In this document: positions 12,244 to 63,032 of the stretch, piece by piece
How the letters are laid out: each line of letters begins with the position of its first letter
Position numbering within the stretch: position 1 is the stretch's first letter
NCBI GenBank assembly: GCA_000004985.1
Contig: GG738858.1
Strand: one strand, 5' to 3'
Source of the DNA: Naegleria gruberi
Lineage: Eukaryota
DNA: 64,000 nucleotides
Translations under genes and position numbers: made by a program
The notes under the pieces: generated by a model
What the model saw: the letters and a program-made list of their open reading frames with translations, nothing else
What the model was told of the DNA's origin: nothing
Database searches by the model: none

Positions 12244-14190
12244 TTAGTTCTTTGTTGGAATATTTCTTGCGAATACTGCATATTGTCCATAGACATTAGT
12301 TTTAGTACTATAATGTGGAATATAGAAAGATCTAATGAAAGCTGGAGATTGATTAGTGTCCAAGAATGGAGCACTAGAAATAACTCTCCACTTATCTGAC
12401 TTGGAGTATGTTTCTTCTTGTTGATCTGGAATTTCAAAATCTACAATATAATGACATTTGCTTTCAGGAATATATCTGTCCATTTCTTCACGATTTTCAT
12501 CATTCATAGTTGTTGGAATAGAAGATGTTGGCTCAACCTCTGCAAAATATTTTGGAAGTAAACCAGAGAATCCTGACTTTAAAAATCTAATTCTTACATC
12601 GAACTTATTTGATGATGGTAAAAAGAATGAGGATGGGAATCTATACCATTCCTTACCAACACAAACATTAACTGGAATATTGGTCTTATTCATTGGAGCT
12701 GATTTTTCAAGTGTTAAAAGTTCTGCATGGAGATCAGCATAAACCTTGAGAGGTGCTTGGAAATTTCTAACATTAGCAATTGATCTTGAGAGACCAAGAA
12801 CTACAATGGCAATTACAATGAGAATGGCCAAAAGTAAAGAAATAGTTGATCTTTTAACACCAACAGCACCCATCTTGTGGTCATCAATACGTTGGAGAGG
12901 TTCATCATTGTAATCACGGAGAACTGCAAGTGTAACATCAGCAGCACCACCCTTGAAAATAAGCATGTCAATAATTCTCAAAAACATTTCAATTGTAATT
13001 GATGAAGCCAAACAAATGATTGGGTAAATGACATACATGAATCTTTCTTCCTTGTGTGGCAATGAAGAGAAGAAAGTGAACCAAATGTAAAATGGAGAAA
13101 TGAAAATAATAGATCTATAGTGAATGTACCATCTTTGAGGAGCTCCTAAATAAGCAGTTTGTAATTTAGATGGAAGAGATGAATGCCAACTGTTGGTAAT
13201 AAAATAGTGCAAAAGAGCAATAATTGGTGTAGCTAAAGCAAAGAGGAAAGCAACATTGAAATTCAAAATCAAATTCTTAAAGTAAAAATTCCAAGGTTCA
13301 ACTCCAAACCTTTCACTTCCTTCACCCTTATTGTACAAAACAAGATTGAGTGGAGTAAAGAATAATCTCTTATAATAGTAGAAGTCAACAGCAATGGTAG
13401 CAGCAATAATTACAACACTGATTTGAATAGCAAACTTTAAAGTTCTCCAAAATCCAAATTTGTGAATAGTATCAATAGCAACTGGTAATCCACAAACAAC
13501 ACTGAATGGCCATCCAATAATTACTGAAGATCCAATAAACAAAACACAGAAGAAATATTTAACATATCTTTCACCATCTGTTGTAGCAAGAGAGTACCAA
13601 CTTCCGAAAGCAAACATAATCATATACATTGAGAATGTAGATGGTAAATAGGAAGCTGATGAAATGAAAATACCAGGAGATGCCAACATGGTGACAATTG
13701 TCAACAATGTAATTCTACTTCCGAATCTTTCATAAATTCCCTTTGTGAAAATAGTTTGAGAAAAGGCACAAACAAATGCAAGTCCAATACGAATAGCATA
13801 AAAAACATCAATTGAAGAAGTAAATCCTAACAACATTGCAATTTTTCCTAAAGCTGCATGTCCTAAAATATAAATATATGAACGGAGAGCAAATACTGGA
13901 CTAAATTCCCAAGTTTGCAATCCCTTTCCAAATAATATTAAATGTGTAGGTTCCCAATAATTAAAAGTTTCATCACAATCACTGATCGGCATTAAATAAG
14001 CTGCTAATAAATCAGTCAACAAGTAACAAAAGAAAATATAATTTAAAGCCTTCAAAGGTAATCTATATTCATCGACAGCACTTTCCGTCAGAGAAACATT
14101 TGGTGTTGGTCTCAAGTGAATACCACCAGCATTGGCATTCAAAGTAGGAGCAGATGAGGTTTTGGCGCTTCCTGATGATTTCTTGCCCAT
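12244..14190 (-). CDS. ALG9: ALG9 alpha-1,2-mannosyltransferase (GT22 family), single exon, 648 aa
   Basis: PISDCDETFNYWEPTH, VNVCVGKEWYRFPSSF and KCHY blocks match human/yeast ALG9 almost residue for residue; multipass TM profile. Confidence 0.9.
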   Translation of the reverse strand: MGKKSSGSAKTSSAPTLNANAGGIHLRPTPNVSLTESAVDEYRLPLKALNYIFFCYLLTDLLAAYLMPISDCDETFNYWEPTHLILFGKGLQTWEFSPVFALRSYIYILGHAALGKIAMLLGFTSSIDVFYAIRIGLAFVCAFSQTIFTKGIYERFGSRITLLTIVTMLASPGIFISSASYLPSTFSMYMIMFAFGSWYSLATTDGERYVKYFFCVLFIGSSVIIGWPFSVVCGLPVAIDTIHKFGFWRTLKFAIQISVVIIAATIAVDFYYYKRLFFTPLNLVLYNKGEGSERFGVEPWNFYFKNLILNFNVAFLFALATPIIALLHYFITNSWHSSLPSKLQTAYLGAPQRWYIHYRSIIFISPFYIWFTFFSSLPHKEERFMYVIYPIICLASSITIEMFLRIIDMLIFKGGAADVTLAVLRDYNDEPLQRIDDHKMGAVGVKRSTISLLLAILIVIAIVVLGLSRSIANVRNFQAPLKVYADLHAELLTLEKSAPMNKTNIPVNVCVGKEWYRFPSSFFLPSSNKFDVRIRFLKSGFSGLLPKYFAEVEPTSSIPTTMNDENREEMDRYIPESKCHYIVDFEIPDQQEETYSKSDKWRVISSAPFLDTNQSPAFIRSFYIPHYSTKTNVYGQYAVFARNIPTKN

Positions 14191-19973: not shown

Positions 19974-21248
19974 TCATTTGGTCCTTTTTGTAATATTTGG
20001 CAATCTTTCTAATGAATGTACTATTGGAAATGCACTGCTTGTGTTTGTGCTTTCTTTTCTCCCAGTGAGAGGATGTACATTCCTCGATCGATTAGGATTT
20101 AAAACATATTCTTTCAGATCCTTAAAATCCTTAACATCCTTCAAATCTTTAACTGCTATACTATCTTTCACTTGACTATCTTTTAATTCTTTCTGATCCT
20201 TCTTCTCCTTTAAATTATATGAATTGAATACGCTCCTTTTTCCTTGAAGAGTATCTGTGGAACTAGCCTTCTTCCTATCCTTTTTAATGGTTGATAAGGT
20301 TTCAGTAGTTTCTGGTAATTGTCTCTTCAAGTTGGATATTTCTTGTTTGATTTCTCTGAGTTCTCTCGGAGTGACAACTCTAGCTCCATTATACAAATGC
20401 AAACTCTCAATTACCTTATCCTTTTCATCACTAACCCTTGTCAAGACTTCAATAAGGGAGTCCTTTCTTTGAAGCTCTTGTTCCAGTAGGGAAAGCTTCT
20501 CCTCGTAAGTTGTTCGGAGTGAGGTTATTTCATCTTGACGAGCCTCCTCTAGTCTCTTCATATTCTTTAGAAGGTGTTCTAAATTCCTCAGATAATTATA
20601 TTTATCATTCCTTGATATGTATGTTTGATTATTATCCTGTTGAAGAAGAAATAATTGTAAATTCCTAACGACTGTTTCCGACAAGGATGTTGTTGAGAGA
20701 GTCCTCAAATCACCTTGAATAGCCTCAATTGATTTTCTAATTTGTTGCAATTCCTCACCCTCTCCTCCTCTAGCATTCGTAATACTACTATGATTTATAT
20801 TATTATTATAATTTAATAGGGCAGATGATGATGGATCATAAACATGAATTGGTGAGAGAATATTAATATTAATCGGCGTTTCTGCTCTGTCCACTTCTTC
20901 AATGCCCGTTGTTTTTGGTGAATTATTCTGACTAGCTAGTGTTGTTTCTACTATATTTCCTTCATCCTTGTTGCTTGAATGATTCTCCTCTTCTACAATT
21001 TCCGTTGAAGTCATCCTATTCGTTTTTGCTGTTGTTGTTGTTGTTAAAATATAACGCTCGCTTATTGAATAATCGCTTAAACAGTCTTTGATGGCAGTTG
21101 AAAAGGCAGTTGAGTGGTGTTGTGCTTTTAAGGAAAATTGAAAGGTTTTGTTCGTTGGGATGTTCAACAAGAATTTTTCTCTGAGCTTTTCGAAAATATC
21201 AATGGCTTGTTGTTTTGAACTGCCATAGAACAACAAAAAAAATGTCAC
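19974..21248 (-). CDS. Coiled-coil protein (hypothetical); 5' end unresolved
   Basis: 424-aa ORF whose 'M' codon is GTG; long heptad coiled coil (EHLLKNMKRLEEARQDEITSLRTTYEEKLSLLEQELQRKDSLIEVLTR); a possible ATG further in, or an upstream intron. Confidence 0.45.
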   Translation of the reverse strand: MTFFLLFYGSSKQQAIDIFEKLREKFLLNIPTNKTFQFSLKAQHHSTAFSTAIKDCLSDYSISERYILTTTTTAKTNRMTSTEIVEEENHSSNKDEGNIVETTLASQNNSPKTTGIEEVDRAETPININILSPIHVYDPSSSALLNYNNNINHSSITNARGGEGEELQQIRKSIEAIQGDLRTLSTTSLSETVVRNLQLFLLQQDNNQTYISRNDKYNYLRNLEHLLKNMKRLEEARQDEITSLRTTYEEKLSLLEQELQRKDSLIEVLTRVSDEKDKVIESLHLYNGARVVTPRELREIKQEISNLKRQLPETTETLSTIKKDRKKASSTDTLQGKRSVFNSYNLKEKKDQKELKDSQVKDSIAVKDLKDVKDFKDLKEYVLNPNRSRNVHPLTGRKESTNTSSAFPIVHSLERLPNITKRTK

Positions 21249-22467
21249 TAATTCTTGGGTTAAATGATGACATGTACAGAGTAATATTTAGTTTTTTAGA
21301 AATTGATTTCATTCAAGAATGCATGCGTCTTGTACATACATCATTTAATATTCTCATCATTGAAGATGAAACAATACAACAACAATATTTATTGAAGAAA
21401 GTTCACAAGATGAGCCAAGATCCCGACAAGACACAATCAAATGTTCACTATAGAACTCCACTATATAATAGGTACCAGATGGAGTCCTTCTATTCTCCCT
21501 ATTTTAGAGTGGAAAAAGATTATCACCAAGCATTTCAAAGATTAAAGAGAGAATTTCATAGGAAAATGGAGGAAACTGAGGAGCAGAGAAGAAGTTTGGC
21601 ATCAAATCGTTATTTAACAAAGAAGGATATTTATCATCACTATGAGGAGATTAAATCAACTGTTAATGAAACTCACTTTGAACTATTGAGGGAAAATATT
21701 AGCAAAGAGGATAATGATGGAAAGCCAGTTCTAAAGTTGGTATGTTTGAATATTCTAATTTGAAAGAGTTTTATAATTTCAAAAAGATAATTAATGGAGA
21801 TGGAGGAGCAGGGAAAACATCTCTGCTTCAATATTTGGGATATGGACAAATGTTTGAATATTTCACTGCCCTTGACGCTTGCATTTCTTACTCTATTAAA
21901 TCGAATAACTCTGAAAAACAAGAGGTTATTAGTAAGTTTGAAATAATTGACACTGCAGGTAAGTAGAGTGTAGGTAAACTCTAAAATTAAACAAAAATAG
22001 GGCAGGAAGAGTAAGTACTCTAATTATTGAGCTCTTGAGTTCGTTTTTCAACAAACAGCTATGACAGAGTGAGACCACTAATTTACCCCGATACTCATAT
22101 ATTTTGTCTTTGTTTTAGTATTGTAATGCTTAGTAGTTTTGAAAATATTCAGTATAAATGGATTCCAGAAATTAAGCATCACATGCCAGACACTCCAATA
22201 ATGTTAATGGGTTGTAAAATTGATTTAAGGAAAAATCCTCTATCCTTAAAACAAATGAAATTCAGAAATTTCTCCAAACCTATCAGTTTTGAAGAAGGAG
22301 AATTAATGGCTCGTTCTTCTGGATGCTGTACCTATGTTGAATCCTCTGCACTCACTGGAGAAGGAAACATGACTGACTTTGCAGAAATTGCTTTCAAAAC
22401 TCTGATTTATTATAGAAATAAATCATTGTTATTTCCTGGAAGAGAGAAGAAATGCGAATTGATGTAA
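21242..22467 (+). CDS. Rho-family small GTPase with a ~170-aa N-terminal extension containing an F-box-like motif. Exons 21242..~21741, ~21800..21958, 22001..22010 (10-nt micro-exon), 22059..22467. C-terminal CAAX is CELM
   Basis: Spliced product ..IINGDGGAGKTSLL...IIDTAG|Q E|DYDRVRPLIYPDTHIFCLCFSIV..MGCKIDLR.. The middle exon GGCAGGAAGA supplies G-Q-E of the DTAGQE switch-II motif. N-terminal DDMYRVIFSFLEIDFIQECMRLV is F-box-like. The first acceptor (21799/21800) is less certain. Confidence 0.7.
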
Positions 22468-22949
22468 AGATCATTGACACCTTCTTTGTAAATTTTGTTT
22501 GTTTTTGTGTAACTTGTTAAATAAAACCTAATTATTTATTGGAAGCCTAATTAAACTTATGATAAAGCTGCAAACATTTTACCAAATGATACTCTTCACC
22601 CTAATTAAGCAATCCAATTCAAATGATTGAATATCTCTGCAACATTGCATAGAGAAATTATATTAGAATCAGTTAAAAAGCATGGATTTGCACTCCAATA
22701 TGTCTCTAGAATATTATAGAGAAATTGTGCTGGAAGCAGTTTCCGGAATTCATTTGCAATTATATTAGCCTCTGACGAATTACAAGTTGATCAAATGAAA
22801 TCAACATCACTTCCACTCGGACGAATCACACGTTTTCCCATAAGTACTGCTTTCAATGGATACTCATTCCTATGTGCTAGGTGAATTGAAACATTCCTCC
22901 ACAACCATGTGAATACTAAGGACATACCATTTACTCACTGATGGATAAC

Positions 22950-24536
22950 CTAGTTGTCAGAGTTATGTGCAACTTTTTTGAGATATTTCTCTAGTCGTTT
23001 GGTTTTCTTTTCAGTCATATTGTTCCCAAACAATGATAAATATTCCAGTTTTTTCATTCCTAACAAGTGTTGAATACAATCATCAGTCAGATCATTAGAT
23101 TGTAAGTCTAGATACTTCAAATTTGGCAACCCACTAATCCATTTGATTGCGTTATCGTCTAGACCACAGAAATTCATTTCTAGATAGGTCAAATTGATCA
23201 AATTCTTGTGCCAATATTTAAAACCTTCAACACTTTCAACTAGGTCAGTAAGTGACAAATGAAGACTGGTTAGTTGTTTCATTAAGCCAAGTTGTTTTAG
23301 CACTTCACTACAACAACCAACACATTCTGAAATATCCAATATAGTTAACCTTGGTAATTTTGAAATTGATTTTACCCCTTTAACAGATATTTGTCCACCA
23401 CTAATATTTAGATATGTCAACTCCTTTAAAGAGCTTATTGAGTCTAAAAAATCATCACAAATTTCATTTCCATCAATAAAAAGAGTTGTCAGTTTTGTAA
23501 GAGATGTCAAATATTTTGCTCCACTACTGGTGATTTCATGTTGAGAAATATTTAAATATGTAAGTTGTGTAAGGGAGGCAACTAGTTTAGCTGCCTCATC
23601 ACCAAGTGCATCAATAATTGAATGGTTGCCAATATCAAGTACTCTCAAATTCTTCATAGAGCTAATCCACTTAAGTCCTTCATTTCCAAAATCATTCTTT
23701 GATATATAAAGTTCTGTCAGGTTTATCATTTTAGTAAGGCTTTCGCAGGATTCACTTTCAATCCAAATTCTGTTAATATGGAGGGTTTGCAATGATTCCA
23801 TAGAAGAAATAGGCAGCAAACCTAATGGTCCTAAATCATTATTTCCAATATCTAAAAATGTTAATGATTTTAATCTACTAATAATGTCAGCATCTTCAAA
23901 AGTCAAATTACAGTTATTCACATCCAAACTTGTCAACTTTTTCAAAGAACTTAAATGTTCTACATCTTGGTTCTCCAAATGCACTGATGAAATATTTAAA
24001 CTTGTTAAATTTTCAATCATTCCAATATATTTCACACCATTAGCGCATTTAGTCTTACTAACATTCAATACAGTCAAATGTTTCAAAGATTTCAAACACT
24101 TGACACCTTCCCTGTAACAATTTTGTCCACTCAAATCTAATTCTCGTAAATTATAAAATCGTTTCTGAATAATTGTAAAAATCAAAAGATTATATTTTAA
24201 GTGCAAACATTCTACCCGATCAATATATTTCTGATGACTTTGAGAGAGTTTCTTCCATTCTCTCCTTTCACTAATCCGAAAATTAAATTTAATTCTCGTC
24301 ATAATAATGTCAAACCACTGTCGGCAAACTAGTATACAATTTGTTAGTACTTGAACTGAATCTAAATATGTGATCACCTCAAAAGTCATATCACTGGAGA
24401 GAAAATCAATATTATATTCTAGTTCTTCTTTTGAATCTGAAATGTATTGTTGATCAAGGAGCAATTTTAGATGGTTTTGGTTTTTGATTTTCTTAAGCTT
24501 GGAAATGATGGAATCAAAGGTGCGTTTTCGTTTCAT
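22950..24536 (-). CDS. F-box / leucine-rich-repeat (RI-type LRR) protein, single exon
   Basis: F-box MTFEVITYLDSVQVLTNCILVCRQWFDII is followed by ~14 LRRs (L.xL.L..N.I...G). The ORF extends to 24629 but its first ATG is at 24536. Confidence 0.7.
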   Translation of the reverse strand: MKRKRTFDSIISKLKKIKNQNHLKLLLDQQYISDSKEELEYNIDFLSSDMTFEVITYLDSVQVLTNCILVCRQWFDIIMTRIKFNFRISERREWKKLSQSHQKYIDRVECLHLKYNLLIFTIIQKRFYNLRELDLSGQNCYREGVKCLKSLKHLTVLNVSKTKCANGVKYIGMIENLTSLNISSVHLENQDVEHLSSLKKLTSLDVNNCNLTFEDADIISRLKSLTFLDIGNNDLGPLGLLPISSMESLQTLHINRIWIESESCESLTKMINLTELYISKNDFGNEGLKWISSMKNLRVLDIGNHSIIDALGDEAAKLVASLTQLTYLNISQHEITSSGAKYLTSLTKLTTLFIDGNEICDDFLDSISSLKELTYLNISGGQISVKGVKSISKLPRLTILDISECVGCCSEVLKQLGLMKQLTSLHLSLTDLVESVEGFKYWHKNLINLTYLEMNFCGLDDNAIKWISGLPNLKYLDLQSNDLTDDCIQHLLGMKKLEYLSLFGNNMTEKKTKRLEKYLKKVAHNSDN

Positions 24537-24934
24537 TTTTTTTATTAAGATCAAAAAGATTAAGATGATCTTGAAATTTTTTGAGTAACTTTCTATTGAA
24601 TTGAGGATGCTATTCAAACTAATGACCAATCTCTTAAGTATTGAATTGATCTTGTCAGCTGTGGAAATTTTCTTGAAAATTCATCAAGTTTACAAAAGCT
24701 GTTAATACAATTTCTCTGTCGTTTCTCAATTCTTCATTAAATTCAAGTGCTAAAAATCCATCCCTTTCTGCAATTAGTTTTACAATTATTTTCACTTTCC
24801 AAAAATTCAACGGTATGTCATCTAAATCCTCATCTGAACAGAAAAGTGTTTAATTAAATAGGTATATATAAGCATCTTCTTTACAATTATTCGAATCAAA
24901 ACCCTGGACTCTATCTTCAAACATCAATATAAGA

Positions 24935-29654: not shown

Positions 29655-29875
29655 GCAAGGAAAGAAATAACTAATAAGGAAAATATTAAGAGTAAATTGG
29701 AAAGAGGAATCAATGAAGGAGAGTTGATACAGCAAATTGGATTTAGTGAATTCTACTGAACATAATTAGTGGACACCATCCCATCTCAATTAAATGTTCA
29801 ATGCTGTTGAATCAAAAAAACGAAAATATTTTAACGATTTAATTTTAGAATTTACAAAATCAAATTTAAAAAAAA

Positions 29876-37484: not shown

Positions 37485-39700
37485 TCAGTTGTTTATTTGA
37501 ATTGGCTTTAGATGAATCATCCTGTTTTGTGGGTTGTTATTATTATTCGAAACTGCTGGATCTCTCGGTTTCAAAGCAAACAAGTTTTGTCTTGAACCTT
37601 CTGATGAAGATGGAGGAGATGGATTGTACAAATGATCATTTAAGAAATGATCATACAGTTCTTTTTCCAAATCATCTAAATTATCAGTATTAAGGATTGT
37701 TGACTTCTTAGAGGCTGATTTTCGTCCTGATGTTTTTTCTGATATAATACTAGAATTTACATTTCCCCAATTAGGAGTATATGGATATCCTTGTTGTTGA
37801 TGGCTAAGTTTTGGAAGAGTTTTGATAGGAGATACATTCATCTTTGAGTAAGAAGAATCTGGAACAACTGTAGCTCCTTTGATGGAGTTTCTTAATGTCA
37901 AGTTTGATTTGCTCTTCCTCGTTTTAAGAAATTTTTCACCTGAAGCTCTTGGAGAAATACTAGCTTGTGTATCTTCTTTAACATTTTCAGAGATTGAAGA
38001 TGGTGCCCTTAGTACTTCCTTCTTGGTTCTTTGAATATTTCTATTATCATTTTCCTGGTCAATTATATCATTTTCATAGTTATGTTGTTTAAGAGTTTGT
38101 GGAGGAGAGTCCGTTAGAGGATTGAGTTGTTTCAATTGTTTTGATGGAGTTGGTTTAACTCTTCTATCCGCTATTGAACTAGTATATACAATTTTGCTGA
38201 GATTCACTGGTTTTGTCTGTACAGTTTTTGGTATTGATGGCTTATTGATCGATTCATGCTTATTGAGATCGATCTGAATAGGTTTTCTCTTTTTTTCTAT
38301 TATTTTTTCTGCTCTTGAGCTAGCCCTTGGAGGGGTTGTTGCTTCATCTCTGTCTCTGCCAGATTGCCTAGATTTTCCTCTCTTATTTCCTTGATAAATG
38401 TCACTTTCTTCTGGCATGCCATCTACAAGGTTTCCTGTCATCATTTCACTAGCTTGAATTGGTCGAGTTATTATCTTCTTTTTTCTACTATTTACAGAAT
38501 TTTGTTCGGAATAAGTTATTGTGGATGGTTGGTTTGTTTGTTGGTGCACTAGATTTCCCTTGCTTCCAAAAGTTTGAAGAGATGGTTTTTGGACTCCTCT
38601 TTCCTGAGGAAGATCTTGAGTTGATTCTTGGGTAGTAGGACTTAATACTGGTTCGTTCTTTTCTAAACCCTCAAAGAACTTGTGGTTCATGCAATCTTCT
38701 GCTGTAAATCGATCCTTTGGATCAATTTTCAGACAACCTTTCATAAAAGCTAGCCCTGTTTTAGAGACCTTACCCAAAAACCTTCGTTCCAATCCCTCAC
38801 AAGCAGTCATATCTGGAAACTTGTATCCATTAAACATTGGATTTTTAAAAAACATCTTAGTCTGTTCCTTCGTCAGTGGACCTAGCAGTTTTTGTATCAA
38901 ATATAACTGATCTATTTCAGATTGTCCAGGGAAAATGGGCCTCCCAGTCAATAGCTCAGCTACAAATATTTAAAATTAATTGAAATAATGATAACAACTT
39001 ACCCATAATACACCCTATTGCCCATATATCAACTTCTGGTCCGTAATGTTTACATCCCAGTAGGAGGGAAGGACATCTATACCACCTAGTTGCTATATAG
39101 TCAGTAAATTCAGTATCTTTCTTTGGTATTGTTCTCGCAAATCCAAAGTCAATAAGTTTAAGGTGTTTGTTACTATTAACCATGATATTCTCGAGTTTGA
39201 TATCTCTGTGTATTATTCTATTTTGATGACAATAAGCGATAGCTCTCACCAACTGATGCATATATGTTTTAACTAAGTCCTCACTAAATCCATCAGGCTG
39301 CAGTGATAAGTGTTCCAACATATTCATTTCAAAGAATTCAAATACTAGATGAAGTTTTCCTCTTTTTCGGAAGACATCTTTTAACGTTATAATATTATCG
39401 TGCTTTAAAATCCTCAATAATTTAACTTCTCGCATTGTAGTTTTCTTTACTACCTCATCCTTTTCTATTTAATTTCAATGATATGTTGAAATTTTGGTGA
39501 TATTGGTCTACTTAGTACTGAAACTTACGATCATTTTCCTTGAATTGCTTGATAGCAACATAGTCTCCCGTCTCCTTATCTCTACATTTTAATACCACTC
39601 CATACGTTCCTATAATAATTAAGTTAGAAAAACAACATCATCCTCAAACAATAAATTCCTTACCTTCTCCGATTTTATCAATCACTTCATATCGATTCAT
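37485..39700 (-). CDS. Cyclin-dependent-kinase-like (CDKL) serine/threonine kinase with a long C-terminal tail. Exons 39700..39664, 39609..39529, 39464..39003, 38959..37485
   Basis: Spliced N-terminus MNRYEVIDKIGEG|TYGVVLKCRDKETGDYVAIKQFKENDD|QKDEVVKKTTMREVKLLRILKHDN...HRDIKLENIM...DFGFAR..TDYIATRWYRCPSLLLG..YGPEVDIWAIGCIM|AELLTGRPIFPGQSEIDQLYLIQKLLG is collinear with CDKL1-5. All donors are GTAAG[T/G]. Confidence 0.85.
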
Positions 39701-57514: not shown

Positions 57515-60500
57515 ATGAGCAATCATCAACAAATAACAACCACAACGACAACCAATTTTACTTTACCACCACTCCCACCTTCATTAATTCCAGCCAGATA
57601 TGAATTTAAAATCACTGGACAATTTCCATCACAATTCAACAATATTCAATCACAATGCTATCATCCATCACAACAAGTTTTAATATTGGGAGGAAGTAAT
57701 GGCAATTTATATTTTGTTGGTGGTGATGCTCATTATTATATTACGTTATCGGATGAATATTCAATTGAAAATATTCAAAATGATGAACAATTTCCGATCA
57801 TTTATTGTCTTTGTAAAAATCATCAAAATTCAAAATCAATTTTAATATCCTATGATTATTTAAAGAAGCAAATTGTCAATCAAGTACATTTTAATGATCA
57901 TCAAAATGTAACAAGTATCAAATATTACAAAGGTTATTTATTAATAACAACAATTGAATTTAAAAATAATATTTATTATCCATATGTAAAGTACATGTCA
58001 ACAAGTAATTTCAAATTTATTCAATCAATCTCGTTATTACATCCAATTTTCAACGCTCCTAATATTATACCACCTTCTAATTTATTAATTAATTGTGTTG
58101 AACCTCATCCGACATATGATCATGTCATTTCAGTTGGTTATTCGAATGGTGAAACTGTTATTTACTATATTTATCATGTGCAGAATACTAACAATAATTC
58201 AATTTCAACAAATCTTAATTGTATTGTTATTCCTTCACAATTTTCAGTAACCAGTTTGAATTGGCATGCTCCGAATATTATAATTTGTGGATATTCAAAT
58301 GGTTCATTTACTTTATACGAAATTAATCATCCTCAATTTACATTTTCTCTCTATTATGAAATGAATATGTTGAAGGGATGTACAAATTTCATAACTTCTT
58401 ACAATCAATTCATCATTTTTGGATTAGGATCAGATACTACAAATGCAGATTCTGGAATATATTATTTGAAAATGAATTATGAAGTAAGAAATATTGAATT
58501 TATTAGACATGTATGGTGTGATCAGAAAAGTATTGAAAATATTACATTGTTAAAATCAGTCTTTGATAATCCAAATTCAAACTCTTTAATGGCTAGTGTG
58601 ATTTATGGAGAAAATAGAAATGTGCTTGTTTTGGATTTATTTGAAAAGATGATTTATCCACAAAAAGAACTTCAATTATTCAATTTGGAAAAGTATTCTG
58701 TACCAACCCCATTCTACTCTACAAAAGATTTGATTTGTAATAATAAGGAATTTATTGTACTGAAAACTTCTGGGATGGATCTCTCAAATTTGGTATATAA
58801 CACTGTTCTTAATAATTTCAATCAAGAACAGTACAGAAGGAATATGCTTGAGTATTATTTAAGACCTGTCAATAGATGGAATATACTTGGCATGAAATAT
58901 ACTCAATACAGAGTCGATATTAATGTCGATAAAGATAATTACATTTTGGTAAAGCTTTCAGATCAAGCTTTAGGTAGTGCAGTCGAGCTGTATTTGTGCA
59001 ATCCATATTTTAACGATATCAGATATATTTATACTATTGGTAATCAAGCAAGTTACAAAACTATGTGCAAATGGAGCGATAGTGTAATTATTTTGGCATC
59101 TATGGATGGAAATTTAGATTTCTTGCATATTCCATCAGCAACTATTTTTACACATGACATTACTGAAAAATCTCCAACTGTAGACAACTCGACTAATATT
59201 TCAGAAGCTCAGGGAAACAACTTCCAAGGCATAATTGCACAAGTGGCCAAGTATAACTTTAACGTTTTAAAATATTCTAATGATAATCCAATTATCCAGC
59301 TAGTTCCTATTCAAGTAATTAATCAACTTTTAATTGCTTACCAAGATGGTACTATTAAGATAGTATCACTCTCTACAAGTGACATTTCATCTGATCAAAT
59401 TATTGAAAATGAGTTTGACAAACATTTTGGAAGTATTATTTTTGAACTCAATCCATCAGACATGAAGAGTTCACATCTCTTTGTAAAATCCATTTTACCA
59501 AAGAAAGATGTAGTTTCACATATTGAATGCTCGATATATAGAGGTAATCTCTATGCTTTCCTTGGTTTTGCCAGTGGGAAGGTAATGCTCATTCAACTGT
59601 ACGATCTAGACTATATGACCAGAAATTATCACAAACTGAGCAAATATATTCATGAGGCAAGATGGAAAGATTTAGCTGATCACATATGTCCATTCGTTAT
59701 TTATGAAAATTCAGCAAACAATTTTGGAAAAGTTATTGATATTTACACTGTTAATGACATTTATAATGAATATAATATTTCTAAAATGGTAGATGAAAAG
59801 TATTTACCACCAATGTTGAGAAGTGAATACGTACCTAATTCAATTATTAACTCTCCAAATGGACCAATTTGTTATACTATTCATAGCACTTCACTGACGA
59901 GTGTATTTGGAACTGTGAAAAATAATATGATTGCCTTCCCAATCAATAGCGCAAGTCCTCTTACCATTTTATTTCAACTCAAGAAAACTCTTCCAATATC
60001 TTTTAATTTTGTTTTGGATATTCTGGATATCAAGTTTGAAACTCTATCAAAGATTGAAGAAATGGCCAACTATAGAATTATTGTCAATGGTGTTCCATTT
60101 GAGTTTGATATCAACTCGAATCATAAACTGGTAGATACAAGGCAAGTGGCTGTTGTTGTAACAGGTGAAGAGTATCGTGTTTATGTCAGAAATGAAACCA
60201 AGTTTGAATGTATTGGATCTGCACCATCAGGTTACAATTGTGTTCAGGATCAGTACATTACAAAGATGAATTTCAAAGTACTTTCACATAGTATCCATGA
60301 CAAAGAGGCCGAGTTTTATGAAAACCAGTTCATGAATAGTAAGATGTACAATTTATGTGATGTGGATTATTTGTGTGAATATATTGATAGTGTGGAAATT
60401 TACAATAATTTATCATTCTCAGATCTTCAAAATTCTAGAATCAAACAACCAAACATTGTTGGATACATTTCCAAAGCGGGAATTCCTCCTCTTGGTCAAT

Positions 60501-61570
60501 CCCATGGCTACACTCGATCAAAATTCATCATGGTTGTCAAGGAAAAGGGTATTGAAGAATATGTTCTCTCAAAACCAATGATTAGTTTGAAAAAGTTCTC
60601 CATTAAGGAAGGAAGAAAGTATAATCATAACAATATAATATCATCTAGCTCGTTAGAATACGTTCGTTCTAATAATCAAAGTTTGATATTATTGGACAAT
60701 CAAAATAATTTAATGATGTTTAGCTTGAAACCTTCATCTTCACAATCTAAATCCATAGACAAGATTTTCACACAAAAAATATCAAACCTCCCAATATCAA
60801 GTCAACCATTCAAAATATCAACCTTTGACAGTGGAAGAGACCTCCTCATTTATAATAATGACCATGTCGTTTATGGAACTTTGTTTGATTCAAAAAGCCA
60901 TAAGAGTACAGATATTTTGGAACCTATTATCTACACTATAGATTATAAGCCACCAACTAAAGCAATTGGAGAATCAATTGTTGGATTTTTCAAGAGCTTT
61001 ACCAAGTCTACACCTTCAGATAAGGATGTCAATGAAACATTTTGGAAGATTTGTACACAACTTCAGAGAGAAGATCTCAATCTTGTCAAACAATTGGTTG
61101 TGAATAATATTGTTCCTTCTCAACCTTCTAACAATTCAGATTTTGATGATAATGAAAAGACCATTATTTCATCCTTCCTCTCAAAAGAATTGGAGCTCAA
61201 GAACAAACCAATTGTAAAGCCACTTCCTCAACCAACTACCACAAGTAGTGCAACAAATGCATCAACCAGTAGTTCAAGTAACTTGAATAATCTCTATACT
61301 AGAACCAATAGAGAATTATTGTTCGGAGATGATGAGAACGATGATAATATCAAAATTACATCATCCAATTCATCTATGAAACGATCTGAACTAAACAACA
61401 GAATTGAGGAAACTAAACTTCAAATGAGTGAGAATTTAAGAAAACTAAATGAAAGAGAGGAAAAATTGAGAGAAATTAATGAAAAAACCAGTGAAATGTC
61501 TGGAATGGCCTCTTCATTTGCAGCCAATGCACAAAAATTGAATCAGAGATCAGGATTTTTCGGTTTTTAA
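57515..61570 (+). CDS. Tomosyn/Lgl/Sro7-family protein: ~1250-aa WD40/beta-propeller region plus a C-terminal R-SNARE-like coiled coil; single exon
   Basis: C-terminus RSELNNRIEETKLQMSENLRKLNEREEKLREINEKTSEMSGMASSFAANAQKLNQR resembles the synaptobrevin/tomosyn R-SNARE motif. N-terminus has WD-like GxSNGxxxxY repeats. Confidence 0.65.
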   Translation: MSNHQQITTTTTTNFTLPPLPPSLIPARYEFKITGQFPSQFNNIQSQCYHPSQQVLILGGSNGNLYFVGGDAHYYITLSDEYSIENIQNDEQFPIIYCLCKNHQNSKSILISYDYLKKQIVNQVHFNDHQNVTSIKYYKGYLLITTIEFKNNIYYPYVKYMSTSNFKFIQSISLLHPIFNAPNIIPPSNLLINCVEPHPTYDHVISVGYSNGETVIYYIYHVQNTNNNSISTNLNCIVIPSQFSVTSLNWHAPNIIICGYSNGSFTLYEINHPQFTFSLYYEMNMLKGCTNFITSYNQFIIFGLGSDTTNADSGIYYLKMNYEVRNIEFIRHVWCDQKSIENITLLKSVFDNPNSNSLMASVIYGENRNVLVLDLFEKMIYPQKELQLFNLEKYSVPTPFYSTKDLICNNKEFIVLKTSGMDLSNLVYNTVLNNFNQEQYRRNMLEYYLRPVNRWNILGMKYTQYRVDINVDKDNYILVKLSDQALGSAVELYLCNPYFNDIRYIYTIGNQASYKTMCKWSDSVIILASMDGNLDFLHIPSATIFTHDITEKSPTVDNSTNISEAQGNNFQGIIAQVAKYNFNVLKYSNDNPIIQLVPIQVINQLLIAYQDGTIKIVSLSTSDISSDQIIENEFDKHFGSIIFELNPSDMKSSHLFVKSILPKKDVVSHIECSIYRGNLYAFLGFASGKVMLIQLYDLDYMTRNYHKLSKYIHEARWKDLADHICPFVIYENSANNFGKVIDIYTVNDIYNEYNISKMVDEKYLPPMLRSEYVPNSIINSPNGPICYTIHSTSLTSVFGTVKNNMIAFPINSASPLTILFQLKKTLPISFNFVLDILDIKFETLSKIEEMANYRIIVNGVPFEFDINSNHKLVDTRQVAVVVTGEEYRVYVRNETKFECIGSAPSGYNCVQDQYITKMNFKVLSHSIHDKEAEFYENQFMNSKMYNLCDVDYLCEYIDSVEIYNNLSFSDLQNSRIKQPNIVGYISKAGIPPLGQSHGYTRSKFIMVVKEKGIEEYVLSKPMISLKKFSIKEGRKYNHNNIISSSSLEYVRSNNQSLILLDNQNNLMMFSLKPSSSQSKSIDKIFTQKISNLPISSQPFKISTFDSGRDLLIYNNDHVVYGTLFDSKSHKSTDILEPIIYTIDYKPPTKAIGESIVGFFKSFTKSTPSDKDVNETFWKICTQLQREDLNLVKQLVVNNIVPSQPSNNSDFDDNEKTIISSFLSKELELKNKPIVKPLPQPTTTSSATNASTSSSSNLNNLYTRTNRELLFGDDENDDNIKITSSNSSMKRSELNNRIEETKLQMSENLRKLNEREEKLREINEKTSEMSGMASSFAANAQKLNQRSGFFGF

Positions 61571-62338: not shown

Positions 62339-63032
62339 ATGCAAGCAAACAATCAAGTACCAACATTCAAGCTTCTCCTCGTTGGAGATGGTGGAACCGG
62401 AAAGACAACATTTGTTAAGAGACATTTGACTGGTGAATTTGAAAAACGTTACATTGCAACTGTTGGAGTTGAAGTTCGTCCATTAAGATTCAACACAACA
62501 AGAGGACCAATTTGTTTTGAGGTTTGGGATACTGCTGGTCAAGAAAAATTTGGTGTAAGTAATATTTAATACTTTACAAAATAGTTTACAAAAATATAAG
62601 GGATTGAGAGATGGTTATTATATTGGAGGAAAGTGTGCAATCATCATGTTTGATGTAACCTCAGTAGCCACCTATAAAAATGTTCCAACATGGCATCGTG
62701 ACATTGTCAGAGTGTGTGAAAACATTCCAATTGTCTTGTGTGGAAATAAGGTTGATGTTCAAGATAGAAAGGTTAAACCAAAATCAATCAAATATCACAG
62801 AACTAAACAATTGCAATATTATGATATCTCAGCAAAGAGCAATTACAATTATGAGAAACCATTCTTGTGGTTGGCAAGACAAATTGTTGGTGATCCAAAG
62901 TTGAGTTTAGTTGAAGAAATTCCAATTTGTCCAGTTGATATTGTAATTGATTTGGAAATGATTAAGAAATATGAAGAAGAATTGGCAAAATATAGTGCAA
63001 TTGCACTTCCAGATGATGATGAAGATTTGTAA
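62339..63032 (+). CDS. RAN: Ran GTPase; exons 62339..62554 and 62601..63032
   Basis: [36 protein letters not shown]...[10 protein letters not shown]|[21 protein letters not shown]...NKVD...C-terminal ALPDDDEDL acidic tail; GTAAGT donor, 46-nt intron, phase 0. Confidence 0.9.

What the first reader, a model, noticed from the sequence alone, without database searches (positions are those of the whole stretch)
21242..22467. Rho GTPase gene with a 10-nt micro-exon and an F-box-like N-terminal extension
Correct reconstruction of the invariant switch-II motif DTAGQEDYDRVRP requires a 10-nt exon (GGCAGGAAGA, 22001..22010). This exon lies between a 42-nt and a 48-nt intron, both with GTAAGT donors.

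The G domain is preceded by about 170 residues. These begin with an F-box-like motif (DDMYRVIFSFLEIDFIQECMRLV) and end in CAAX (CELM). An F-box-Rho fusion is not a standard architecture.
Basis: partly seen in the sequence, partly recalled or inferred. Interest (0 to 1): 0.5.

Follow-up and report, generated by a model that had tools for sequence, protein, structure and literature searches.

The report
Naegleria F-box-derived Rho gene, 10-nt exon
This is a real Naegleria gruberi Rho-family GTPase gene with a 10-base exon and a degenerate F-box at its front end, but both the protein sequence and the F-box-plus-GTPase design were already published in 2021, so only the apparent recent origin of the tiny exon is new.

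Summary
It encodes a 362-aa protein ending in CELM.

That protein is letter-for-letter the "manually corrected" model XP_002679223.1* in Table S8 of Herman et al. 2021 (PMC8296547). The same paper states that the F-box is the commonest extra domain fused to Rab, Rho, Ran and Galpha GTPase domains in Naegleria. The finding is therefore right but already known.

- **F-box:** this protein has no Pfam F-box hit, and the published table does not flag one. Its N-terminus is nevertheless homologous to paralogues that do hit (hhalign 96%, E 3e-9; two paralogues pass Pfam's cut-off). A family profile retrieves mostly F-box proteins from the PDB.
- **Micro-exon origin:** the two closest paralogues and a N. 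lovaniensis relative carry only the downstream intron, with GCA GGT CAG GAA GA uninterrupted. The 42-nt intron is specific to this gene, and probably a gain at an AG|GT site.
- **Not shown:** there is no transcript evidence, Skp1 binding is untested, and the switch-I threonine is not conserved.

The parts
21242..21739 (+). Exon 1. It encodes the N-terminal extension, residues 1-166, ending ..KPVLKL (the start of beta-1).
   Evidence: The first in-frame upstream stop is at 21182. The extension is conserved in paralogues.
21260..21358 (+). Degenerate F-box-derived segment, residues 7-39 (LNDDMYRVIFSFLEIDFIQECMRLVHTSFNILI). It has Asn where the consensus has Pro and Phe where it has Trp (read against the consensus from general knowledge), plus one extra residue relative to six of the seven other clade members.
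   Evidence: There is no direct Pfam hit. hhalign against the paralogue F-box regions gives 96% probability, E 3e-9. Paralogues score up to 7e-6 against Pfam F-box. The clade profile hits FBXO3 in the PDB at 8e-5.
21740..21786 (+). Intron 1, 47 nt, GTATGT..AG, phase 0. It lies just before IINGDG.
   Evidence: The two closest paralogues have an intron at the same position and phase (L004, L005). N. lovaniensis P0012 has none there.
21787..21958 (+). Exon 2. It encodes G1 (GDGGAGKT), a divergent switch I, and runs through DTA plus the first base of the Gly codon.
21959..22000 (+). Intron 2, 42 nt, GTAAGT..AG, phase 1, inside the Gly codon of DTAGQ. It is specific to this gene's lineage.
   Evidence: It is present in the window and in the 98% allele L002. 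It is absent from L004, L005 and L001, which read GCA GGT CAG GAA GA (GCT GGA CAA CCT GA in L001) without interruption.
22001..22010 (+). 10-nt micro-exon GGCAGGAAGA. It supplies (G)GG CAG GAA GA(C), that is G-Q-E-D of switch II.
   Evidence: The resulting protein is identical to the published corrected model.
22011..22058 (+). Intron 3, 48 nt, GTAAGTAC..AG, phase 2, in the Asp codon of QEDYD. This is the older intron, shared within the clade.
   Evidence: L004, L005 (both starting gtaagtac) and N. lovaniensis L001 (starting gtaagtga) have an intron at the same position and phase.
22059..22467 (+). Exon 4. It encodes the rest of switch II, G4 (CKID), the Rho insert, G5 (SSAL), a short basic stretch (EKK) and CAAX (CELM, 22453-22464), then the stop.

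Best explanation
**Shown.** This is one N. gruberi gene, the locus annotated as XP_002679223.1. It encodes a 362-aa, CAAX-terminated Rho/Rac-type GTPase with a roughly 166-residue helical N-terminal extension, and that extension begins with a degenerate descendant of an F-box.

The gene has three short introns. Two of them lie only 10 nt apart inside switch II, so a 10-nt exon (GGCAGGAAGA) must be spliced in to produce DTAGQEDYD and keep the frame.

**Inferred.**
- The downstream intron (intron 3) is old and shared by the paralogue clade. The upstream 42-nt intron was most likely gained in this gene's lineage at an AG|GT proto-splice site. The paralogues read GCA GGT CAG there, and the window reads GCA G|gt...ag|GG CAG.
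- Splicing of so small an exon is plausible because the introns are 42-48 nt and can each be recognised on their own (intron definition). Both have perfect GTAAGT donors. The two introns are probably removed one after the other.
- By analogy with RhoBTB-Cul3 and with prenylated F-box proteins such as FBXL2, the protein would be farnesylated at CELM. It would then act at a membrane as an SCF-associated module, either presenting GTPase-bound partners for ubiquitination or being turned over through its own F-box.
- This functional step is the weakest. The F-box is sub-threshold and the switch-I threonine is not conserved, so the protein may be an atypical GTPase that does not switch.
For: **Organism and locus.** Two single-exon ORFs in the window are exact matches to N. 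gruberi proteins EFC46493 and EFC46604.

**Gene model.**
- The four-exon model is in frame with canonical splice sites.
- The motif plus its splice dinucleotides is unique in the window and absent from shuffles.
- The protein is identical to the manually corrected XP_002679223.1* in Table S8 of PMC8296547.
- A second allele keeps the whole structure.

**Rho identity.**

**A single gene.** The N. lovaniensis relative is contiguous across the junction between extension and G domain.

**F-box ancestry.**. In addition, the paper flags the paralogues XP_002671699, XP_002676320 and XP_002682912 as F-box and discusses F-box-GTPase fusions.

**Intron history.** L004, L005 and L001 have only intron 3. 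In the tree the window gene is sister to (L005p,(P0003,XP_002673500)) with 100% bootstrap.
Against: - No transcript data could be consulted, so the splice junctions rest on inference. The curators' sequence was probably derived by the same conservation logic.
- This protein has no Pfam F-box hit. A profile of its three-member subclade finds no F-box in the PDB. The published table leaves its domain column empty.
- The AlphaFold model of the extension was unusable, with mean pLDDT 48.
- The Thr35 equivalent in switch I is absent in the subclade and is T/N polymorphic between the two alleles.
- Allele dN/dS is 0.58, not distinguishable from neutrality with only 14 differences.
- Gain versus loss of intron 2 rests on few taxa. 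One loss in the sister clade plus one in the N. lovaniensis lineage would also fit.
Confidence: 0.8

Rival explanations
1. The N-terminal segment is only a relic of an F-box. It no longer binds Skp1 and serves as a helical or coiled-coil extension for dimerisation, localisation or autoinhibition of an atypical Rho. The gene model would be unchanged.
For: There is no Pfam hit at E<=10. The subclade profile finds no F-box in the PDB. The closest paralogue scores only 13.6 bits, E 0.065, below the 20.5-bit cut-off. Read against the F-box consensus from general knowledge, the segment has Pro->Asn and Trp->Phe; it also has a one-residue insertion relative to most clade members. The model predicts long helices at residues 85-153 (low confidence).
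Against: By my reading against the F-box consensus, most of the hydrophobic core positions are kept (L7, M11, V14, I15, F16, L19, L30, V31, F35). L7, V14, F16, L19, L30 and F35 are invariant across the three subclade members, which suggests constraint. The Asn-for-Pro variant also occurs in XP_002671699, which passes Pfam's cut-off.
Confidence: 0.35
2. The locus is a young, decaying duplicate (a functional pseudogene). The micro-exon is not spliced efficiently, and the open frame simply has not yet been disrupted.
For: Allele comparison gives 10 non-synonymous against 4 synonymous changes, dN/dS 0.58, not significantly below 1. One of these is T193N in switch I. XP_002679223 occurs only once in the published table, so it is not listed as the one-to-one counterpart of any N. 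fowleri gene. The paper describes birth-and-death evolution in the expanded Rab-like F-box GTPase families.
Against: The 1089-nt frame across four exons and all six splice sites are intact in two alleles. G1, G3, G4, G5 and CAAX are kept. The curators did not mark it as a pseudogene, although they marked others.
Confidence: 0.1
3. Exon 1 and the GTPase domain are separate genes, and the fusion is an artefact of joining ORFs.
For: A prokaryote-style gene caller split them on the metagenome contigs, giving P0129 (173 aa) and a separate Ras fragment.
Against: The G domain would lack its beta-1 start and any in-frame ATG. Intron 1 sits at the same place in both closest paralogues. The N. lovaniensis relative has the extension and G domain in one exon. 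The layout recurs in ten or more paralogues.
Confidence: 0.03

Closest known systems
N. gruberi XP_002679223.1* (manually corrected model; Herman et al. 2021, BMC Biol 19:142, PMC8296547, Additional file 10 / Table S8, class 'Rac')
   Same: The 362-aa sequence is identical, including the residues encoded by the micro-exon. It is the same gene.
   Different: The paper gives only the protein. It does not describe the 10-nt exon or its origin, and it lists no additional domain for this entry.
Naegleria F-box-Rho paralogues (XP_002671699.1*, XP_002676320.1*, XP_002682912.1*; same paper)
   Same: XP_002671699 and XP_002676320 have the same layout: an F-box, then a roughly 100-130-aa linker with conserved YNP and NYR motifs, then a Rho domain and CAAX. 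They are 32-34% identical overall, and XP_002671699 is the nearest outgroup in the tree.
   Different: Their F-boxes are detectable by Pfam or SMART, whereas this one is not. XP_002682912 is longer and its listed sequence is cut, so its full layout was not checked. The more distant paralogues XP_002676560 and N. lovaniensis P0012 keep the switch-I IPTVY motif that this subclade has lost.
RhoBTB (Rho domain plus tandem BTB; Cul3 adaptor)
   Same: A Rho-family GTPase domain is fused to a module that docks onto a cullin-RING ligase, and the GTPase is atypical. That description of RhoBTB is from general knowledge. The paper notes that Naegleria also has RhoBTB.
   Different: RhoBTB has BTB domains C-terminal to the GTPase and works with Cul3. 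This protein has an F-box-derived segment N-terminal to the GTPase and would work with Skp1-Cul1. There is no homology outside the G domain.
TbFRP (FYVE-F-box-GTPase of Euglenozoa; PMC3593210)
   Same: It is another F-box-plus-small-GTPase fusion in Discoba. Its authors propose that the F-box is coupled to rapid turnover of the protein.
   Different: Its GTPase is Rab18-like, it has a FYVE domain, and that paper reports no N. gruberi orthologue. It is an independent fusion.
FBXL2 and other prenylated F-box proteins
   Same: An F-box combined with a C-terminal CaaX gives a membrane-anchored SCF receptor (general knowledge). FBXL2 is among the profile's PDB hits.
   Different: Its substrate-binding domain is an LRR, not a GTPase, and it is geranylgeranylated rather than predicted to be farnesylated.
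Ultra-short exons (<=15 nt) that gene predictors miss
   Same: A tiny exon inside a conserved domain is typically mis-annotated (PMC8831610 abstract). The reference model at this locus needed manual correction.
   Different: This one appears constitutive and lineage-specific, a by-product of a second intron. It is not an ancient, regulated cassette.

Membership tests
Rho family of small GTPases | Ras-superfamily G domain with G1, G3, G4 and G5 motifs | tested here: met
   Pfam Ras scores 4e-31. GDGGAGKT, DTAGQE, CKID and SSAL are all present.
Rho family of small GTPases | Rho insert between beta-5 and alpha-4 | tested here: met
   DLRKNPLSLKQMKFRNFSKPISFEEGE aligns with the insert region of TC10 and Cdc42 with a single one-residue gap.
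Rho family of small GTPases | Closest relatives are Rho, Rac or Cdc42 rather than Ras or Rab | tested here: met
   The top 60 PDB hits are all TC10, Cdc42 or Rac (about 1e-38). Database hits are named Rho or Rac. The curators class it as 'Rac'.
Rho family of small GTPases | Canonical switch I with the Mg/gamma-phosphate-sensing Thr35 | tested here: inconclusive
   YFTALDA replaces YVPTVFD. The only Thr (T193) is Asn in the second allele, and the position is not Thr in the sister paralogues.
Rho family of small GTPases | C-terminal CAAX prenylation box | tested here: met
   The protein ends ..EKKCELM*. That X = Met predicts farnesylation is general knowledge. Prenylation itself cannot be tested here.
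F-box (Pfam PF00646 / PF12937) | Match of the protein itself to the family HMM | tested here: not met
   There is no F-box or F-box-like hit at E<=10 for the full protein or for residues 1-163. Subclade profiles find no F-box in the PDB.
F-box (Pfam PF00646 / PF12937) | Homology to bona fide F-box sequences through intermediates | tested here: met
   hhalign of the window subclade against six paralogue N-termini gives 96% probability, E 3e-9. Two of those six score 26.2 and 21.2 bits, above the 20.5-bit cut-off. The eight-member profile hits FBXO3 at 8e-5, and 18 of its 20 listed PDB hits are F-box proteins.
F-box (Pfam PF00646 / PF12937) | Three-helix F-box fold | tested here: inconclusive
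   The AlphaFold2 model predicts helices at 9-18, 21-39 and 43-58, but mean pLDDT is 48. No fold search was justified.
F-box (Pfam PF00646 / PF12937) | Binding to Skp1 and assembly into SCF | not testable with these tools
   This needs a pull-down, yeast two-hybrid or complex prediction with N. gruberi Skp1.
Constitutive micro-exon | Canonical splice sites on both sides, restoration of the frame and a conserved motif, and conservation in a second allele | tested here: met
Constitutive micro-exon | Observed in transcripts | not testable with these tools
   No RNA-seq or EST data are reachable. The only support is inference plus the published curated protein.

The most novel reading that the evidence does not exclude
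The 42-nt intron 2 may be a datable, lineage-specific intron gain in a heterolobosean. It would have been inserted at an AG|GT proto-splice site (GCA GGT CAG in all sampled close paralogues), only 10 nt upstream of an older intron, and so created a 10-nt exon inside the catalytic switch II of a GTPase. Together with cryptic members like this one, the F-box-GTPase class in Naegleria would be larger than domain searches report. These proteins could be prenylated, membrane-bound SCF modules.
Probability: 0.55. Interest if true: 0.4.

Novelty: already known. Interest (0 to 1): 0.22.

Why it matters
**As annotation.** The case shows that the deposited N. gruberi model at this locus needed correction, and it explains why: a 10-nt exon that predictors cannot see. 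The corrected protein is already in the literature.

**As biology.** F-box-GTPase fusions hint at ubiquitination coupled to small-GTPase signalling in Naegleria. Herman et al. 2021 already proposed this, and it remains untested.

**What is new here.**
- This particular Rho carries a cryptic, degenerate F-box.
- The micro-exon looks like a by-product of a recent intron gain next to an older intron. That makes it a small but clean case for studying intron gain and the splicing of ultra-short exons in an organism with very short introns.

Tried and rejected
- **Pfam on the protein and its N-terminus:** the only matches were weak ones to unrelated families (OGG_N at 0.04-0.15), which I dismissed as noise.
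- **Fetching paralogue DNA:** the N. gruberi paralogues P0001 and P0003 are not on record. Metagenome alleles L004 and L005 were used instead.
- **Word-indexed homologue searches with the N-terminus or its alignment:** these returned only metagenome ORF fragments.
- **AlphaFold2 on exon 1 with a 6-sequence alignment:** mean pLDDT was 48, so no fold search was run.
- **Profiles of the immediate subclade against the PDB:** no hits.
- **Looking for a source or other copies of intron 2:**
  - There is no other copy in the window or the fetched loci. The one exception is a 17/18 AT-rich match at 29838-29855, judged to be chance.
  - There is no exact 23-mer match in JGI metagenome contigs.
  - An origin of intron 2 by tandem duplication was considered by eye. 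Only the GTAAGTA donor and a CTCTAA motif, which may be a branch site, are shared with intron 3, so it is not supported.
- **Allele dN/dS:** 0.58, underpowered.
- **First motif search:** my first pattern had one N too many and found nothing.
Full report
**Origin of the window.** Two long single-exon ORFs (57515-61567 on + and 12247-14190 on -) are exact matches to Naegleria gruberi NEG-M proteins EFC46493/XP_002679237 and EFC46604/XP_002679348, which lie on a 782-kb scaffold. GC content is about 33% throughout.

**The observation.**
The exons are 21242-21739, 21787-21958, 22001-22010 and 22059-22467. The introns are 47, 42 and 48 nt, with donors GTATGT, GTAAGT and GTAAGT, and all end in AG.
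- The spliced CDS is 1089 nt and encodes 362 residues. These include GDGGAGKT (G1), DTAGQEDYDRVRPLIYP (switch II) and CKID (G4). They also include a Rho insert, SSAL (G5) and a C-terminal ..EKKCELM.
- Leaving out the 10-nt exon shifts the frame into a stop after DTAAMTE. Retaining either intron also introduces stops.
- The string AG-GGCARGARGA-GT occurs once in the window on both strands, at 21999-22012, and never in 100 shuffles.
- The first in-frame upstream stop is at 21182, and I saw no intervening in-frame ATG when reading the sequence.

**What the protein is.**
- Pfam Ras matches residues 165-338 at 4e-31.
- Against solved structures, the top 60 hits are all TC10, Cdc42 or Rac1 at about 1e-38. 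The alignment continues through the Rho-insert segment with only a one-residue gap.
- It is therefore a Rho/Rac-type GTPase.
- It is atypical in switch I. YFTALDA replaces YVPTVFD, the sister paralogues read YYNLPFD and YLHGPCD, and the only threonine there (T193) is Asn in a second allele.

**Prior publication.**
- The exact 362-aa sequence is not in the 15-billion-protein collection. The best database hit is a 48%-identical N. gruberi paralogue, P0001, whose deposited model reads DTAGQEELRPLSYP.
- The literature search led to Herman et al. 2021 (PMC8296547). Its Additional file 4 says that the N. gruberi Ras superfamily was re-annotated. [quoted passage not shown]
- Its Table S8 lists a sequence under 'Rac', tagged as manually corrected XP_002679223.1*, that is identical to my model.
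- That entry has no pseudogene flag and an empty 'additional domain' cell. Paralogues XP_002671699.1*, XP_002676320.1* and XP_002682912.1* are marked F-box.
- XP_002679223 occurs only once in that table, so it is not listed as the one-to-one counterpart of any N. fowleri gene.
- The gene model and the architecture class are thus already published. The 10-nt exon itself is not described in the passages I read.

**One gene or two.**
- Intron 1 cuts the beta-1 strand (..KPVLKL|IINGDG..).
- The two closest paralogues have an intron at exactly that place and phase.
- The N. lovaniensis relative P0012 (locus L001) encodes the extension and the G1 motif in one continuous exon.
- The fusion is real.

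**The F-box question.**
- This protein has no Pfam F-box match, even at E<=10.
- Profiles of its immediate subclade, with two or three sequences, find nothing in the PDB.
- An alignment of eight clade N-termini (A1) shows the pattern L-[NP]-x-[DE]-hydrophobic-x-x-x-I-x-S-[FY]-L.
- Scanned individually, five of the eight match Pfam F-box. XP_002676320 scores 7e-6 (26.2 bits) and XP_002671699 scores 2.7e-4 (21.2 bits), both above the 20.5-bit cut-off. XP_002676560 scores 4.5e-3, P0012 scores 0.018, and the closest paralogue XP_002673500 scores 0.065.
- The A1 profile retrieves FBXO3 (8e-5) and FBXO42 (5e-3). Next come FBXW21, KDM2A/B, beta-TrCP, FBXL2, Skp2 and FBXO4. Only two of the 20 listed hits are not F-box proteins.
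- Profile-profile comparison of the window subclade against the other six N-termini gives 96% probability and E 3e-9 over 48 columns.
- The N-terminus is therefore F-box-derived but degenerate. Against the F-box consensus (general knowledge) it has Asn for Pro and Phe for Trp. It also has one inserted residue relative to most clade members.
- Whether it still binds Skp1 is unknown.
- AlphaFold2 on exon 1 gave three N-terminal helices but a mean pLDDT of 48, which is unusable.

**Distribution.** A full HMMER scan of 1.84 billion representative proteins with the 166-residue extension found only four proteins. All four are Naegleria: P0003 is an N. gruberi protein, and the other three are ORF fragments from one ENA metagenome, ERZ929261. 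They are P0129 (an allele of this gene), P0131 (an allele of XP_002673500), P0132 (a third close paralogue) and P0003. The extension is restricted to this lineage.

**Second allele.**
- Contig L002 is 98.3% identical across the gene and has no indels within it.
- All splice sites are kept. Introns 2 and 3 and the micro-exon are identical.
- There are 14 coding differences, 4 synonymous and 10 non-synonymous.
- dN/dS is 0.58 and not significantly below 1, so constraint cannot be demonstrated from this pair.

**Origin of the micro-exon (new here).**
- DNA of the paralogues shows GAT ACG/ACT GCA GGT CAG GAA GA|gtaagtac..ag|T TAT GA. That is a single intron, of 46 nt in L004 and 47 nt in L005.
- N. 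lovaniensis L001 reads GCT GGA CAA CCT GA|gtaagtga..ag|T TAT.
- This intron has the position and phase of window intron 3. Within the N. gruberi paralogues it also has the same first eight bases.
- The window instead reads GCA G|gtaagtag..atag|GG CAG GAA GA|gtaagtac.
- A neighbour-joining tree puts the window gene as sister to (L005p,(P0003,XP_002673500)) with 100% bootstrap. XP_002671699 is next, at 80%.
- With N. lovaniensis also lacking intron 2, one gain is more parsimonious than two precise losses. Each such loss would have had to spare an intron only 10 nt away.
- The site is an AG|GT proto-splice site, and the GT of the ancestral GGT codon may have become the donor. This is inference from few taxa.
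- I found no donor sequence for the intron.

**Mechanism.**
- Shown: the gene structure, Rho identity, CAAX, F-box ancestry and the clade-specific intron.
- Inferred: introns of 42-48 nt with perfect GTAAGT donors allow recognition by intron definition, and sequential removal allows a 10-nt exon to be included.
- Inferred: farnesylation at CELM, because X = Met (general knowledge).
- Inferred: a link to SCF, by analogy with RhoBTB-Cul3, prenylated FBXL2 and the euglenozoan FYVE-F-box-GTPase TbFRP, whose authors tie the F-box to rapid turnover. The degenerate F-box and the missing Thr35 weaken the 'GTP-gated SCF receptor' reading.

**Verdict.** The residual novelty is the cryptic F-box assignment for this member and the probable intron-gain origin of the micro-exon.

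Noticed in passing
window 62339-63032 (+): A canonical Ran GTPase gene ([24 protein letters not shown]...DDDEDL). It has one 46-nt GTAAGT..AAG intron at 62555-62600, in phase 0 after GQEKFG. That position differs from the switch-II introns of the Rho gene.
   Followed up: partly
window 22519-24600 vs L002 1783-2783: In the 98%-identical metagenome allele, the sequence just downstream of the Rho gene continues with window 24600->23647 in inverted orientation, at only 92% identity. The ORF at 22950-24629 (-), which I read as leucine-rich-repeat-like without testing, is therefore either inverted or replaced by a paralogue in that strain.
   Followed up: no
window ~21205 (intergenic, between divergent genes): The metagenome allele L002 has a 68-bp insertion relative to the window. 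It lies in the roughly 230-bp region between the Rho gene and the upstream minus-strand ORF, whose start I placed near 21010 by eye.
   Followed up: no
window 21800-21880 (residues ~186-200); L002, L004, L005: The switch-I threonine (Thr35 equivalent) is not conserved in this four-gene subclade and is T/N polymorphic between alleles. The more distant F-box-Rho paralogues XP_002676560 and N. lovaniensis P0012 keep IPTVY. This suggests an atypical GTPase cycle.
   Followed up: partly
P0001 (deposited N. gruberi XP_002673500) vs L004 872-917: The deposited paralogue model reads DTAGQEELRPLSYP. This is explained if the predictor chose the AG inside T TAT GAC AG|A as the acceptor, 9 nt downstream of the true one. 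The curated version and L004 read DTAGQEDYDRLRPLSYP. Switch II in this clade is a hotspot for annotation errors.
   Followed up: partly
L003 1610-1650: A more divergent paralogue (an allele of XP_002671994) has its switch-II-region intron at a different site, in phase 2 in the Ile codon before the D57 equivalent. It lacks GQEDYDR altogether, so it has probably lost the catalytic Gln.
   Followed up: no
window 29838-29855 (-): A 17/18-nt match to the middle of intron 2 (GTAAATTCTAAAATTAAA against GTAAACTCTAAAATTAAA). It is AT-rich, does not extend, and is probably chance.
   Followed up: partly
window 38992-39447 (-): A protein-kinase-like segment, matched by the kinase part of an Anaeramoeba kinase-GTPase protein (P0112) in tblastn. 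It appears to belong to a gene that includes the ORF at 37485-38951 (-).
   Followed up: no
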